DNA of 64,000 nt from a virus. Lineage: Duplodnaviria > Heunggongvirae > Uroviricota > Caudoviricetes. The notes under the pieces are model-generated. The model made no database searches. It saw only the letters and a program-made list of their open reading frames with translations, and was not told the origin of the DNA. The stretch lies in IMG/VR virus record IMGVR_UViG_3300031760_000008, positions 12,337-76,336 of that record. One strand, given 5' to 3'. Of this stretch, positions 9,724-12,503 are shown one piece after another. Each line of letters opens with the position of its first letter. Position 1 is the stretch's first letter. Made by a program: the position numbers and the translations under genes.

Positions 9724-10587
9724 TTAAGTAGTTCTACCAGAAGCTCCTCCTAATGAGCTACCTGTTCTTAAATTACTTCTAGTGATTTGTCCATTATATA
9801 CTCTAGCTCCTACATCACTACTTTCAGCTGAAGATGTAGGGAATTTTGTATTATATGTATTTTGCGTACTCATAGCACCGCTTCCGCCTATAATATCTTT
9901 AGCTCCAATAATAGTATCAGGATAACAATCCATTTGTATTTGTACTTCATTATTTGAGTAAAAATTATTTATAATAGGTAATTGCCAAGTAGTACTATAA
10001 TTTAATACAAATCCTTTTAATATCATTTGTCCAAATATAAAATATGTTGTAGGAGGAATTAATCCATTACTTGTATATTGAGGATAACAAGACATTTGTA
10101 ACATTTTATTAACATTAACATACCAAGTTCTTGTTCCAAAAGGACCTTTATCAGATTCAACCTGATGTCCTGCAGGCTGACAAGATAAATAATTGCCTGA
10201 TAATCTTCTTTCATTATAGTAAATATCATTTAAACTACTATCAGTTAAACTATAACTTCCTGTTAATAAATCTCTATGAAATTTTAATGTAAAACTTACA
10301 TTTTTTAATTCAGTATTAGCATATGCTGCTATAGGAGATGATCTTCCTAATATTTCTTGAGGTTGCCATTTTACACCAATAGATTCAGTAACTTGTTCTG
10401 GATATACAGGAAGCTGTACTAAATATTCTTTATCTCCAGATATACCAAAACTATACTGGTTACCAAATTTAATAAGCATATAACATTCCCAATCTCTAAT
10501 TCCGGATAAGCCATTATATCCTGAATTATAACCAGAGGTTCTAAAACTTCTTTCCCAAGAATCTAAATTTCCTATTGTTTCAGCCAT
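9724..10587 (-). CDS. tail/baseplate structural protein (287 aa)
   Basis: ORF in baseplate module, start codon overlaps stop of upstream gene (ATGA at 10587). Confidence 0.45.
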   Translation of the reverse strand: MAETIGNLDSWERSFRTSGYNSGYNGLSGIRDWECYMLIKFGNQYSFGISGDKEYLVQLPVYPEQVTESIGVKWQPQEILGRSSPIAAYANTELKNVSFTLKFHRDLLTGSYSLTDSSLNDIYYNERRLSGNYLSCQPAGHQVESDKGPFGTRTWYVNVNKMLQMSCYPQYTSNGLIPPTTYFIFGQMILKGFVLNYSTTWQLPIINNFYSNNEVQIQMDCYPDTIIGAKDIIGGSGAMSTQNTYNTKFPTSSAESSDVGARVYNGQITRSNLRTGSSLGGASGRTT

Positions 10588-12503
10588 TATTTACTCACCT
10601 CCGAAATATTACCATATACATTATATTCTTGTTCTAGTAATGCTTCAGTTTGAACATCAACATAACCTAAATTAAATGATATATGATAATTTTTTAAACT
10701 TACAGCAGGATCATCTATCATACTTTGTAGAATTGTATAATCTTGCTCATTAATATATCCATCCCTATTAATATCTGCTCTAGATTTCTGTATTGGAGAT
10801 AATAAATCACTATCTGGATAACGATTAGGATCTAATTCATGCTGTTTGTGTTGTGGATCATCTAAATATTCTCTTAATATTTGTAGATCCACATTATCTA
10901 ATTTATTATCTTTATTTAAATCTCCGTAGTAATAATCATAATGACTTACTTGGAATTGTTTTACTAAATTCTTCATATTATCACTATAATATCCTGGATA
11001 AAAATAATTGTCATCATACATATGCTCTGGATACACTTCTTTTAATAACTTTTGCATATAAGTTATATTATATGAATCACTATATGGTTGTACTGCCATA
11101 TTTAATAAATAATTGAAGAATTTTTCATGAATAACCCATTCATTGGTAGAGAATTCACCGAATGGAATATTAATATCTCCTCTAGTACAAAATTCATCTT
11201 CATAATAATGCCCATCTATAATTAATAAATTATTAACATTTTTATTATTAGTTATATCAGCTTGAATTGTATATGTATATGGAGCCCAACCTAAATCTGG
11301 TATATATCCATGTAGATAATCTTCAAACATTAAAGTATCATGCATATCAACTACACCATCACCATTTATATCCATAGCAGCAAGTTGTCTACGAGTAGGT
11401 GTCCAGTGTAACTCTTCTGAACCAGGACCATAAGCTGTATATTTCGCAAGTAAATGATAATCTTGTAAATTTACTTCTCCATCTAAATTAATATCTCCAA
11501 CTCTCATTGTTATTGTTACATCTTTATCAACACTTAAATTACCATAATCTGAAGGAACTTGAATACATAGCCATCTTGCATTATATCCTGTACCATCAGC
11601 AGCTTTAGAACATGTATATTGATAACCAGCTCCTTGTAATAAATCTATTTCTTTAACATTACTTAACATAAATCCTGGTATATTCTGTTTTAATGTAGCT
11701 GGTGAACTTCCTATAACCATATGCACAGATTGATTAAAATCATGAGCTATAGTTACTTTTTGTCCTGGATAACATTTAAATAAAGCTATCTTATATAACT
11801 TTTCAGTATTAGGATGAGGTATATCATCAACACCTACTTGATCTCTGATTGCATAATCATAAAGAAATGTTCCATCAAATTGATTAACAAATATCTTCAT
11901 ATCTTCATTTGGAAAATAGTTTTTTCTAGAACTCTTTTTAATTGATATAAATAACTTTCCATTAAGTATATAATCATTTAATATACGTAAATCTTCGGTA
12001 TCTATCTTACCATCCAAATTAATATCAGCTTTTTTCATAATAACCGGATCTTTTTCTTGATGATTAAATATAATATCATGAAGAATTTGAACATCATCAT
12101 CATCTACACTACCATCACTATTAACATCTTTAGAGTTATCTACCCATTCATTAATATCTGTTACTTCCCATCCTACAGATTTACAGTATTCTTTTATAGC
12201 ATCTAAATTATCTGTAAGAAATTCACTATCTTGTTTAGTTATTTCTTTTGATTTAAAGATAATTTCATCATCCTTTAAACCAGGAACAAAACGAGTATTT
12301 AATTCTGGAAATATTTCAACTATTTCTTTTTGTACGACAAACATATTTTTAACATTAGGTAAATTTAAATAAGTAACTAATTGTTGTAAATCATTTTTAT
12401 CAAATTTACCTAGAATATTATTACTATCTTGATTTAATTCTTGATGTAAAAATCTTTTTAAATATCTTACATAAAAGTTGTCCATTCCAAATTTAATATT
12501 CAT
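10587..12503 (-). CDS. baseplate/distal-tail protein carrying three pairs of dockerin-like repeats
   Basis: Six ~22 aa repeats matching type-I dockerin consensus (DVNSDGSVDDDDVQIL; ADINLDGKIDTEDLRILNDYIL; GDINLDGEVNLQDYHLLAKY; MDINGDGVVDMHDTLMFEDY; GDLNKDNKLDNVDLQILREY; ADINRDGYINEQDYTILQSM); first gene after tape measure. Confidence 0.7.
   Translation of the reverse strand: MNIKFGMDNFYVRYLKRFLHQELNQDSNNILGKFDKNDLQQLVTYLNLPNVKNMFVVQKEIVEIFPELNTRFVPGLKDDEIIFKSKEITKQDSEFLTDNLDAIKEYCKSVGWEVTDINEWVDNSKDVNSDGSVDDDDVQILHDIIFNHQEKDPVIMKKADINLDGKIDTEDLRILNDYILNGKLFISIKKSSRKNYFPNEDMKIFVNQFDGTFLYDYAIRDQVGVDDIPHPNTEKLYKIALFKCYPGQKVTIAHDFNQSVHMVIGSSPATLKQNIPGFMLSNVKEIDLLQGAGYQYTCSKAADGTGYNARWLCIQVPSDYGNLSVDKDVTITMRVGDINLDGEVNLQDYHLLAKYTAYGPGSEELHWTPTRRQLAAMDINGDGVVDMHDTLMFEDYLHGYIPDLGWAPYTYTIQADITNNKNVNNLLIIDGHYYEDEFCTRGDINIPFGEFSTNEWVIHEKFFNYLLNMAVQPYSDSYNITYMQKLLKEVYPEHMYDDNYFYPGYYSDNMKNLVKQFQVSHYDYYYGDLNKDNKLDNVDLQILREYLDDPQHKQHELDPNRYPDSDLLSPIQKSRADINRDGYINEQDYTILQSMIDDPAVSLKNYHISFNLGYVDVQTEALLEQEYNVYGNISEVSK

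What the first reader, a model, noticed from the sequence alone, without database searches (positions are those of the whole stretch)
10587..12503. Phage baseplate protein with three dockerin-like modules (six type-I dockerin-style Ca-binding repeats)
The first gene after the tape measure encodes six 22-aa segments that fit the cellulosomal type-I dockerin repeat (D-x-N-x-D-G-x-h-D/N-x-x-D-h-x-x-h) very closely, e.g. ADINLDGKIDTEDLRILNDYIL. They are arranged as three pairs at roughly aa 127/160, 336/379 and 533/583. Dockerins normally dock enzymes onto cohesins of cellulosomal scaffoldins or cell-surface anchoring proteins. Their presence on a distal-tail/baseplate protein suggests the virion may bind host cohesin-bearing surface proteins, or use dockerin-like F-hand modules for calcium-dependent assembly. 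Either would be an undescribed adsorption or assembly strategy. It also hints that the host is a cellulosome-producing clostridium.
Basis: partly seen in the sequence, partly recalled or inferred. Interest (0 to 1): 0.85.

Follow-up and report, generated by a model that had tools for sequence, protein, structure and literature searches.

The report
Phage tail protein studded with dockerins
An uncultivated giant phage of Gram-positive bacteria has a tail protein built from cell-wall-binding domains into which three calcium-binding dockerin modules, the "plugs" of bacterial cellulosomes, have been inserted, probably as extra sticky modules whose binding partner is still unknown.

Summary

- The core is two PG_binding_1-type domains plus a CBM-like beta-sandwich.
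- Doc1 sits in a linker, Doc2 is nested in the sandwich, and Doc3 is nested inside the second PG-binding domain.
- Orthologues in the same slot (tape measure, X, tube-initiator-like gene) carry 0 to 9 loops.
- The J-like baseplate wedge protein of relatives also carries one or two dockerins.

Ca ligands are nearly invariant. The canonical cohesin-contact positions of Doc1 and Doc3 are among the most variable in the protein.

No cohesin was found in the window. The host is unknown, probably a low-GC Firmicute, and nothing indicates a cellulosome producer.

Best reading: a lineage-specific, cell-wall-binding tail accessory protein with dockerins as Ca-dependent add-on adhesion modules. Cohesin-mediated adsorption remains possible (about 0.2) but untested. 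This is a new variant of a known kind, of moderate to high interest.

The parts
10587..12503 (-). Whole gene: 638-aa multi-dockerin, PG_binding_1-type tail accessory protein
   Evidence: ORF. Pfam Dockerin_1 E=7.9e-26. More than 210 full-length homologues on contigs up to about 213 kb. AF2 pLDDT 87.9, pTM 0.71.
12306..12503 (-). aa 1-66: N-terminal three-helix domain, divergent PG_binding_1 (PGB1)
12138..12305 (-). aa 67-122: small alpha/beta domain of unknown function
11961..12137 (-). aa 123-181: dockerin module 1 (loops at aa 126 and 160, spacing 34), lying in an interdomain linker
   Evidence: Best PDB profile hits are type-I dockerins over query positions 124-179. A clean insertion relative to P0153, P0154, P0159 and P0163.
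11499..11960 (-). aa 182-335: beta-sandwich, first part (CBM/GOLD-like), with the invariant motif R-x-N-x-F-P-N-x-D-M-x-x-F-x-N-Q-F
11307..11498 (-). aa 336-399: dockerin module 2 (loops at aa 337 and 378), nested in the beta-sandwich. The second loop is degenerate in about half of the homologues.
   Evidence: Strands 324-334 and 406-416 flank it. Absent in P0154, P0159 and P0163; present in P0153.
11166..11306 (-). aa 400-446: beta-sandwich, second part
   Evidence: AF2 strands 406-416 and 426-430.
10929..11165 (-). aa 447-525: first two helices of the second PG_binding_1-type domain (PGB2), ...ITYMQKLLKEVYPE...PGYYSDNMKNLVKQFQ
   Evidence: The aligned region of P0153 (aa 410-462) matches PG_binding_1 at 38.8 bits against a cut-off of 23, E=1e-9. 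P0159, P0163 and P0146 also match. The hhalign register with phiKZ gp144 is canonical but weak, E=0.056.
10710..10928 (-). aa 526-598: dockerin module 3 (loops at aa 528 and 577, long 27-aa linker), nested inside PGB2
   Evidence: Best Pfam stretch 526-596. A clean insertion between the 'FQ' helix and the 'LGYxDxxTE' helix in the alignment with four short orthologues.
10587..10709 (-). aa 599-638 plus stop: last helix of PGB2 (ISFNLGYVDVQTEALL) and C-terminus. The stop TAA overlaps the ATG of the next gene (TAATG), and the Shine-Dalgarno sequence GGAGGTG of that next gene lies here.
   Evidence: G613, D616 and T619 are invariant or nearly so across the wide family.
12504..12703 (-). 200-nt gap between the tape measure gene and this gene: AT-rich hairpin (AAAAGATAAGTT...AACTTATCTTTT) followed by a T-rich run, then a strong Shine-Dalgarno AAGGAG 9 nt before the ATG
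   Evidence: Read directly from the sequence. Not scored as a terminator by the consensus scan because the stem has too few G-C pairs.
12704..16006 (-). Tape measure protein, 1100 aa (upstream neighbour)
   Evidence: Size, position and Gly-rich centre. C-terminal motif shared with the GXN1 tape measure protein, E=3e-7.
9724..10587 (-). Tube-initiator/CIS_tube-like protein, 287 aa (downstream neighbour, translationally coupled)
   Evidence: Weak Pfam CIS_tube hit. Homologous to HSE3 gp077, the gene directly after that phage's tape measure gene, E=4e-9.
3069..5255 (-). Baseplate J/gp6-like wedge protein, 728 aa. It carries one canonical dockerin loop (DANQDGRVDEDD, aa 428) in a degenerate dockerin-like insert at about aa 378-450 (nt 3906-4124).
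   Evidence: Dockerin_1 at 16.5 bits, below the cut-off. Motif. The N-terminal half matches 'baseplate J protein' of HSE3, E=2e-16. Orthologues in relatives carry full Dockerin_1 modules.

Best explanation
The gene encodes a lineage-specific accessory protein of the tail-tip/baseplate-hub module. The phage is an uncultivated, roughly 200-kb, AT-rich myovirus with a T4-type capsid that most likely infects low-GC Gram-positive bacteria.

The conserved scaffold is two PG_binding_1-type three-helix domains, a small alpha/beta domain and a CBM-like beta-sandwich. This is the architecture of a cell-wall-binding protein. I infer that it is built into the virion next to the tube-initiator and hub proteins. 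There it would hold the tail tip on the peptidoglycan layer, where the neighbouring spike protein (M23 + NlpC/P60 peptidases) cuts the wall.

Three true type-I-style dockerin modules have been grafted onto this scaffold as surface insertions: one in a linker, one inside the beta-sandwich and one inside the second PG-binding domain. Each pair of loops binds Ca2+ and folds into the paired F-hand dockerin fold.

The number of modules varies from 0 to 4-5 among orthologues. They also appear in the J-like wedge protein. Their putative contact faces evolve fast while the Ca ligands are fixed. I therefore read them as Ca2+-dependent, multivalent add-on adhesion modules that raise the avidity of the baseplate for some host-envelope ligand. 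That ligand may or may not be a cohesin.

Shown: domain identities, nesting, synteny, copy-number variation and conservation pattern.

Inferred: virion incorporation, peptidoglycan binding, Ca2+ binding and the adhesive role. It is also inferred that the modules fold fully only after lysis, in the Ca-rich exterior.
For: Dockerin identity:
- Pfam E=7.9e-26.
- PDB profile hits to more than 20 solved dockerins.
- Foldseek TM 0.84-0.93.
- The model is confident: pLDDT 87.9.

PG-binding scaffold:
- 17 of 29 family members match Pfam PG_binding_1, best E=1e-9. Matches fall in both the N-terminal and the C-proximal aligned regions.

Nested insertions: shown by the alignment with short orthologues.

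Same gene slot, with or without dockerins. The order is sheath, tube, gp51-like, tape measure, X, CIS_tube-like, gp53-like, hub, M23 spike, gp25, J.
- It holds for the 374-aa dockerin-less P0154 and the 476-aa P0153.
- It holds for all dockerin-rich relatives examined.

Coupling to the next gene: stop and start overlap as TAATG.

Copy-number variation:
- Loop counts run from 0 to 9.
- The J-like wedge protein of relatives has 1-2 Dockerin_1 modules, E down to 2.5e-24.

Conservation:
- Ca-ligand positions have entropy 0.13-0.39 bits, against a protein mean of 1.38.
- Positions 10/11 of Doc1 and Doc3 lie at the 82nd-97th percentile of variability.

Gram-positive context:
- The tail spike carries M23 + NlpC/P60.
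- The nearest capsid relatives infect Listeria, Streptococcus and Bacillus.
- MAG labels are Romboutsia, Bacilli and Clostridia.
Against: - No direct evidence that the protein is in the virion. There is no match to any solved or annotated baseplate component.
- The window protein's own PG_binding_1 copies are too diverged for Pfam or a PDB profile search. Peptidoglycan binding may have been lost.
- High variability at the putative contact positions is equally what unconstrained, solvent-exposed residues would show.
- No ligand is known.
- Doc2 is much more conserved than Doc1 and Doc3 and may be purely structural.
- The model's coordinates could not be inspected, so exposure of the helix faces is not verified.
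Confidence: 0.4

Rival explanations
1. The virion-displayed dockerins dock specifically onto cohesin modules of host cell-surface proteins (anchoring scaffoldins or other cohesin-bearing proteins). The cohesin-dockerin pair would then be the adsorption receptor-ligand pair, and the host would be a cohesin-encoding, possibly cellulosomal, clostridium.
For: - The fold and Ca ligands are those of cohesin-binding type-I dockerins.
- Hypervariable positions 10/11/17/18 in Doc1 and Doc3 coincide with the known specificity-determining positions (positions known from the dockerin literature cited in PMC11063209).
- Multivalency and spread to the J-like wedge protein fit a receptor-binding role.
- MAG labels include Clostridia.
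Against: - The host is unknown and no cohesin could be examined.
- Dockerin-less orthologues in the same slot show that the protein family works without dockerins.
- Lectin-like fibre proteins (Laminin_G_3, fibre repeats) lie downstream in relatives and are more conventional receptor binders.
- None of the six repeats has the Ser-Thr pair of the C. thermocellum recognition code (sequence).
- From established knowledge, many dockerin-bearing proteins in non-cellulolytic organisms have no known cohesin partner (Peer et al. 2009, cited in PMC6487960; not readable here).
- 27% GC is below that of the classical cellulosome producers (my own knowledge).
Confidence: 0.2
2. The dockerins have no protein partner. 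They act as Ca2+-dependent structural modules: rigid spacers or clamps that stabilise the protein, or Ca2+ sensors that switch the baseplate into an infection-competent state only in the Ca-rich extracellular medium.
For: - Ca-ligand positions are under the strongest constraint in the modules, while the surfaces are free to vary.
- Doc2 and Doc3 are nested inside other domains, where a module that folds on Ca2+ binding could clamp the host domain.
- The first repeat of Doc2 is almost invariant, including its helix. That fits intramolecular packing.
- Ca2+ dependence of adsorption or baseplate activation is common in phages of Gram-positive bacteria, for example lactococcal phage p2 (my own knowledge).
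Against: - Expansion to 4-5 modules per protein, and independent acquisition by the J-like protein, is easier to explain by avidity than by stability.
- Dockerin-less orthologues fold and function without them.
- The second loop of Doc2 has lost its Ca ligands in about half of the homologues. Ca binding is therefore not uniformly required.
Confidence: 0.25
3. The dockerins bind phage-encoded cohesin-like modules on other virion proteins. A cohesin-dockerin system would then be used to assemble or attach peripheral baseplate parts or fibres.
For: Two different tail proteins (this one and the J-like one) carry dockerins. Many large neighbouring structural proteins have no recognisable domains, and a diverged cohesin beta-sandwich could hide among them.
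Against: - No Pfam Cohesin hit in any of the 58 window ORFs of at least 100 aa, or in 9 downstream genes of relatives.
- The protein's own beta-sandwich resembles GOLD/CBM folds, not cohesins.
- Module numbers vary from 0 to 9 loops among orthologues with otherwise conserved neighbours. A fixed assembly interface would not tolerate that.
- The contact positions are hypervariable.
- Only 64 kb of a roughly 200-kb genome was examined.
Confidence: 0.05
4. The protein is not a virion component. It would be a non-structural factor expressed with the tail genes, for example an assembly catalyst like T4 gp51, or a cell-wall-targeting lysis or superinfection-exclusion factor.
For: - No homology to any known structural protein.
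- It is absent from the nearest isolated phages.
- A hairpin and a 200-nt gap separate it from the tape measure gene.
- A gp51-like non-structural hub assembly gene lies in the same cluster.
Against: - There is no signal peptide or transmembrane segment (sequence). A free protein could reach the wall only after lysis.
- Translational coupling to the tube-initiator-like gene.
- The slot inside the hub gene block is strictly conserved across a wide clade.
- The same kind of module sits on the J-like wedge protein, which is structural.
Confidence: 0.1

Closest known systems
Cellulosomal type-I dockerins (Pfam PF00404), e.g. C. thermocellum Xyn10B dockerin (PDB 2CCL/1OHZ), Cel9 dockerin (4FL4), and the double-dockerin of Clo1313_0689 (8X39)
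   Same: - Two 22-residue segments, each with the 12-residue Ca loop followed by a helix.
- 26-34% identity.
- Several modules in one chain has a precedent in the double-dockerin.
   Different: - The modules are not at the C-terminus of a secreted enzyme. They are internal, and two of them are nested inside other domains of a cytoplasmically made phage tail protein with no signal peptide.
- There is no Ser-Thr recognition pair.
- No cohesin partner is known.
- The Doc3 linker is unusually long (27 aa).
Non-cellulosomal dockerin/cohesin modules (Peer et al. 2009 survey; C. perfringens NagH-NagJ complex, PDB 2OZN)
   Different: Those are on secreted bacterial enzymes or toxins, and for NagH/NagJ the partner cohesin is known. 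Here the carrier is a phage tail protein and the partner is unknown. The survey itself could not be read; it is known to me from its title in the reference list of PMC6487960 and from memory.
PG_binding_1 domains of phage and bacterial cell-wall enzymes (phiKZ gp144, PDB 3BKH; Burkholderia phage AP3 endolysin, 5NM7; SleB N-domain, 6TCI)
   Different: No catalytic domain is attached. There are two copies. The window copies are highly diverged, and one is split by a dockerin insertion.
Tail proteins of Gram-positive phages with inserted binding modules ('evolved' distal tail proteins with CBM insertions; Ig-like, BACON or CBM decorations on phage structural proteins). This comparison rests on my own knowledge.
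   Same: A gene right after the tape measure gene. Its conserved scaffold has acquired nested, variable-number binding modules, thought to add weak or auxiliary adhesion to the host envelope.
   Different: The carrier is not a Dit homologue and this is a myovirus. The inserted modules are dockerins, not CBMs or Ig-like domains. To my knowledge, and in the literature searched, dockerins have not been described in this role.
Uncultured human-virome phage proteins auto-annotated 'Dockerin type 1' (UniProt A0A8S5M688, Myoviridae sp. ctCL221; A0A8S5UCJ3, Siphoviridae sp. ctgN495)
   Same: Dockerin-like modules in predicted phage proteins. These are structural matches to the model in BFVD.
   Different: They are short or unrelated carriers (211 and 400 aa) with automatic names only. 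Their sequences, contexts and any relation to this family were not examined.

Membership tests
Dockerin type I (Pfam PF00404) | Profile match above the curated gathering score | tested here: met
   90.5 bits against 22.9, E=7.9e-26, 4 stretches. Profile hits to more than 20 solved dockerins.
Dockerin type I (Pfam PF00404) | Tandem pair of about 22-residue segments, each a 12-residue Ca-binding loop (D1, N/D3, D/N5, D/N9, D12) followed by a helix | tested here: met
   Six segments in three pairs, spacing 34, 41 and 49. Ligand positions are nearly invariant in five of the six across 70 homologues.
Dockerin type I (Pfam PF00404) | Paired F-hand, three-helix fold | tested here: met
Dockerin type I (Pfam PF00404) | Ca2+ binding and Ca2+-dependent folding | not testable with these tools
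   Only inferred from the conservation of the ligand residues.
Dockerin type I (Pfam PF00404) | Binds a cognate cohesin module | not testable with these tools
   No cohesin (PF00963) in the 58 window ORFs or in 9 neighbouring genes of relatives. The host genome is unknown.
Cellulosomal component (dockerin-bearing subunit of a cellulosome) | Secreted protein (signal peptide) with a catalytic or CBM module and a terminal dockerin, in an organism that encodes scaffoldins | tested here: not met
   - No signal peptide; the N-terminus is a helical domain.
- No CAZyme domain.
- The dockerins are internal or nested.
- The gene lies in a phage tail module.
PG_binding_1 (Pfam PF01471) | Profile match above the gathering score in the window protein itself | tested here: not met
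   No hit at E<=1. PDB profile searches of both regions were negative. hhalign against phiKZ gp144 gave E=0.056.
PG_binding_1 (Pfam PF01471) | Homology through the family: aligned regions of orthologues match the model | tested here: met
   17 of 29 members match, best E=1e-9. P0153 aa 410-462 scores 38.8 bits against a cut-off of 23; P0159 scores 28.7 and P0163 26.5. The N-terminal region matches weakly in P0144 and P0154. The regions align with window aa 447-525 plus 608-625, and with aa 8-45.
PG_binding_1 (Pfam PF01471) | Three-helix-bundle fold | tested here: met
PG_binding_1 (Pfam PF01471) | Binds peptidoglycan | not testable with these tools
   Inference only.
Core contractile-tail baseplate proteins (T4 gp48/gp54, gp27, gp5, gp53, gp25, gp6 equivalents) | Sequence or structural homology to a known baseplate component | tested here: not met
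   No PHROG family. No full-length PDB or BFVD match. No orthologue in HSE3 or GXN1, where the tape measure gene is followed directly by the tube-initiator-like gene.
Core contractile-tail baseplate proteins (T4 gp48/gp54, gp27, gp5, gp53, gp25, gp6 equivalents) | Encoded inside the hub/baseplate gene block and co-expressed with it | tested here: met
   Gene order in the window and in 10 or more relatives. TAATG overlap with the next gene.
Core contractile-tail baseplate proteins (T4 gp48/gp54, gp27, gp5, gp53, gp25, gp6 equivalents) | Present in the virion | not testable with these tools
   Needs virion proteomics or cryo-EM.

The most novel reading that the evidence does not exclude
Virions of a whole clade of roughly 200-kb gut or anaerobe myoviruses display arrays of dockerins on their baseplate: up to 4-5 modules on this protein, plus 1-2 on the J-like wedge protein, times the baseplate symmetry. 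They would use these to plug into cohesin modules on the host surface. That would be the first case of a virus hijacking the cohesin-dockerin system as its adsorption mechanism, with the specificity residues at positions 10/11/17/18 co-evolving with host cohesins.
Probability: 0.2. Interest if true: 0.85.

Novelty: new variant of a known kind. Interest (0 to 1): 0.55.

Why it matters
Dockerins are textbook parts of cellulosomes. Finding them as recurrent, copy-number-variable grafts on two tail proteins of a large, uncultivated phage clade extends the module's known uses to virion surfaces.

It gives a concrete, testable candidate for Ca2+-dependent adsorption in phages of Gram-positive anaerobes. 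It is also a clean natural example of domain-in-domain insertion, with a dockerin sitting inside a PG_binding_1 domain and another inside a beta-sandwich.

If a cohesin partner exists on the host, the dockerin sequences could help predict hosts for these phages. They would also offer naturally orthogonal cohesin-dockerin pairs for protein engineering.

If there is no partner, the family is a good model for what 'orphan' dockerins do.

Tried and rejected
Searches that found nothing useful:
- GenBank phages. tblastn and megablast found no relative of the gene or its region. At E<=1 there were only three marginal hits to unannotated faecal phage contigs over Doc2. The sheath also has no match.
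- PHROGs: no family for the protein.
- Cohesin in the phage: none in the 58 window ORFs of at least 100 aa, or in 9 downstream genes of relatives. Only 64 kb of about 200 kb was covered.
- Literature: no paper on dockerins in phage tails or virions. The hits were a CBM mis-named 'dockerin' in an E. coli phage, dockerins on a putative ANME virus contig next to NosD-like genes, and unrelated texts. Peer et al. 2009 is not held.

Weak or limited results:
- Sequence-level proof that the window's own helical regions are PG_binding_1. PDB profile searches were negative and hhalign was weak. The assignment rests on fold and on orthologues.
- Recent internal duplication of the repeats is rejected. Pairwise identity between the six segments is 6-11 of 22 residues, about what the consensus positions alone would give.

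Readings considered and rejected:
- The 'split gene' in L014-L017 is not a real two-gene version. It is due to CCTCGG replacing CCTGG throughout those contigs.

Technical limits:
- The host could not be identified. The one genome-contig scan gave only three MAG labels.

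
Full report
**1.

The finding's coordinates are exactly one minus-strand ORF, 10587..12503, 638 aa with an ATG start.

A strict dockerin Ca-loop pattern matches six times, at aa 126, 160, 337, 378, 528 and 577. These form three pairs with spacings of 34, 41 and 49 residues.

- In all six reading frames of the 64-kb window the pattern occurs seven times: six here and once in the 728-aa ORF 3069..5255.
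- In 20,000 shuffles of the protein, which is D/N-rich, the mean count is 0.011 and never exceeds 2.
- Pfam Dockerin_1 matches at E=7.9e-26, 90.5 bits against a cut-off of 22.9, in four stretches. The EF-hand models match only below their cut-offs.

**2. They are true paired dockerin folds**

I built a 70-sequence alignment of full-length homologues. It gave a confident AlphaFold2 model with pLDDT 87.9 and pTM 0.71.

- A profile of the alignment finds more than 20 solved dockerins and nothing else significant.
- Foldseek aligns single modules to C. thermocellum dockerins at TM 0.84-0.93 and 1.7-2.0 A.

It is not met.

**3. What the rest of the protein is**

The window protein itself does not match Pfam PG_binding_1. 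PDB profile searches of its two helical regions are negative. An hhalign against the phiKZ gp144 domain is weak (E=0.056), although it falls in the canonical register.

The link comes from the family:
- A profile of the beta-sandwich region alone (A3), searched against 1.84 billion representatives, finds just 54 proteins.
- Of 29 members examined, 17 match PG_binding_1 (best E=1e-9) and only 15 match Dockerin_1.
- The PG_binding_1 matches lie in the N-terminal region (aa 12-44 of P0144 and P0154, weak) and in the C-proximal region (P0153 aa 410-462 at 38.8 bits against 23; also P0159, P0163 and P0146).

An alignment with four short orthologues shows how the modules were added:
- Doc1 (aa ~123-181) and Doc3 (aa ~525-607) are clean insertions.
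- Doc3 splits the second PG_binding_1 domain between its '...VKQFQ' helix and its 'LGYVDVQTE' helix.
- Doc2 (aa 336-399) interrupts the beta-sandwich, with strands on both sides. It is present only in P0153 among the short forms.

The architecture is therefore: PGB1, alpha/beta domain, [Doc1], beta-sandwich[Doc2], PGB2[Doc3].

**4. Genomic context**

The window is 27% GC and encodes the following:
- a T4-type major capsid protein and prohead protease;
- a gp51-like hub assembly protein, and tube and sheath candidates;
- then, in order: tape measure protein, this gene, a CIS_tube-like 287-aa protein, a gp53-like 137-aa protein, a 525-aa protein, a 665-aa M23 + NlpC/P60 spike or lysin, gp25, and a 728-aa J-like protein.

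The stop codon of the gene overlaps the next ATG (TAATG), and that gene's Shine-Dalgarno sequence lies inside the 3' end of this gene. Upstream there is a 200-nt gap with an AT-rich hairpin and a strong AAGGAG.

No GenBank phage has a relative of the gene.

By capsid protein, the nearest isolated phages, at about 30% identity, are large myoviruses of Listeria, Streptococcus and Bacillus. In two of these, HSE3 and GXN1, the tape measure gene is followed directly by the homologue of the 287-aa protein. The dockerin protein is therefore not part of the universal baseplate core. It is specific to this lineage.

Within the lineage it is strictly positional:
- Relatives on contigs of 100-220 kb keep the same order.
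- So do the 374-aa dockerin-less P0154 and the 476-aa P0153.

**5. Evolutionary pattern of the modules**

Loop counts vary from 0 to 9 among orthologues.

In relatives, the J-like wedge protein carries one or two full Dockerin_1 modules: L005 at E=2.5e-24, L008 at 6.6e-13 and L009 at 9.7e-10. The window's copy is degenerate, at 16.5 bits with one canonical loop.

Across 70 homologues:
- The Ca-ligand positions have entropy 0.13-0.39 bits in five of the six repeats, against a protein mean of 1.38. The second loop of Doc2 is degenerate at 1.10.
- Positions 10 and 11 of Doc1 and Doc3, which are specificity positions in cellulosomal dockerins, lie at the 82nd-97th percentile of variability.
- Doc2's first repeat is almost invariant, helix included.
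- The six repeats share only the consensus positions with one another. They are old, not recent duplicates.

**6. Interpretation**

Shown:
- a multi-dockerin protein on a PG_binding_1/beta-sandwich scaffold;
- the gene sits in the hub block of a contractile tail;
- dockerins are dispensable, variable grafts.

Inferred: the protein is a virion-associated cell-wall-binding accessory at the tail tip of a phage of Gram-positive bacteria, and the dockerins are Ca2+-dependent add-on adhesion modules.

The avidity argument rests on the expansion of module number, the spread to a second baseplate protein and the fast-evolving faces on a fixed Ca-binding frame. It favours a binding role over a purely structural one, but only moderately. 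Unconstrained surface residues would look the same.

- No cohesin is detectable in the window or in adjacent genes of relatives.
- The host is unknown. The hints are MAG labels of Romboutsia, Bacilli and Clostridia, a Gram-positive-type lysin and an NrdD in a relative.
- Conventional lectin-like fibre genes lie nearby in relatives.
- Nothing indicates a cellulosome producer.

The assembly version, in which the phage encodes its own cohesin, is disfavoured by the lack of cohesin hits and by the 0-9 variation in loop count.

**7. Novelty**

The literature searches found no description of dockerins on phage tails or virions. The nearest mention is dockerin domains on a putative archaeal-virus contig.

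BFVD contains uncultured-phage proteins automatically named 'Dockerin type 1'. The bare presence of dockerin-like modules in phage ORFs is therefore already in databases, though unstudied.

The following appear undescribed:
- the combination found here, with dockerins nested in PG_binding_1 and beta-sandwich domains of a conserved post-tape-measure tail protein;
- the copy-number series from 0 to 9;
- a second dockerin-bearing wedge protein.

I rate it a new variant of a known kind, namely phage tail proteins that accrete auxiliary binding modules. Interest is about 0.55. It would rise to about 0.85 if cohesin-mediated adsorption were demonstrated, to which I give a probability of about 0.2.

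Noticed in passing
window 3069..5255 (-), esp. nt 3906-4124; L005:17206-19473, L008:16925-19069, L009:17249-19423: The J/gp6-like baseplate wedge protein also carries dockerin modules, inserted in its lineage-specific C-terminal half. The window copy is degenerate (one canonical loop, 16.5 bits). Relatives have one or two full Dockerin_1 modules (E down to 2.5e-24). In HSE3 and GXN1 the J protein is only about 485 aa and lacks this half.
   Followed up: partly
L014, L015, L016, L017 (IMG/VR UViGs 3300021255_000083, 3300001483_000067, 3300001531_000177, 3300028805_000489): These four related contigs contain no CCTGG or CCAGG sites at all, against about 0.65 per kb in the others. They carry CCTCGG instead, exactly where the reading frame needs CCTGG. 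Reverting these sites restores intact genes; the dockerin protein goes from 255+365 aa to 692 aa. This looks like systematic miscalling at CCWGG (a Dcm-type motif, possibly a modified base) and not real gene splitting. CCAGG sites must be altered in some other way that I did not work out.
   Followed up: partly
window 30323..36073 (-): A cluster of seven tRNA genes (Gln, Cys, Trp, Tyr, Ser x2, Pro), interspersed with two NUMOD4+HNH_3 homing-endonuclease-like ORFs (30402..30923 and 33259..33795).
   Followed up: no
window 28679..29053 (-), 37377..37727 (-), 40087..40830 (-), 48422..49195 (-): Several genes are suggestive of an RNA-repair or cyclic-phosphate processing set. They are a cREC_REC receiver domain (E=5e-25), a weak HAD_SAK_2/PNKP-phosphatase-like protein, a calcineurin-like phosphoesterase and a nucleotidyltransferase. 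They lie near the tRNA cluster.
   Followed up: no
window 31256..32743 (-): A 495-aa SPFH/Band 7 plus flotillin-like protein encoded by the phage (E=8e-23). This is unusual cargo for a phage.
   Followed up: no
window 5712..7709 (-) and 867..1634 (-): The tail module encodes a 665-aa protein with both Peptidase_M23 and NlpC/P60 domains, probably the wall-degrading spike or hub protein. Further downstream there is a papain-family Peptidase_C1 protein of 255 aa, an odd domain to find in a tail gene block.
   Followed up: no
window 12504..12703 (-): An AT-rich hairpin (AAAAGATAAGTT / AACTTATCTTTT) with a T-rich tail lies right after the tape measure stop codon, in a 200-nt gap. In the dockerin-poor orthologues the same gap is only 12-33 nt (L021, L023). 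It may be a terminator or attenuator that sets the expression ratio between the tape measure protein and this protein.
   Followed up: no
window 16151..16606 (+): This is the only sizeable plus-strand ORF (151 aa, no Pfam hit) in an otherwise all-minus-strand structural block, between the gp51-like gene and the tape measure gene. It is flanked by a strong bidirectional terminator-like hairpin at 16598-16627. A 148-aa gene is called on the opposite strand at the same place in L001 and L002.
   Followed up: no
window 27883..28626, 52569..53615, 53645..54370 (-): Sugar-related and surface-related cargo: a UDP-glucose/GDP-mannose dehydrogenase fragment, a family-2 glycosyltransferase and a DUF285 (BspA-like) protein. 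DUF285 and GT2 genes also lie just downstream of the baseplate block in relative L009.
   Followed up: no
L012:17883-20066: A relative carries an anaerobic ribonucleotide reductase, NrdD (E=9e-183), right after its baseplate genes. This is consistent with an anaerobic host for the clade.
   Followed up: no
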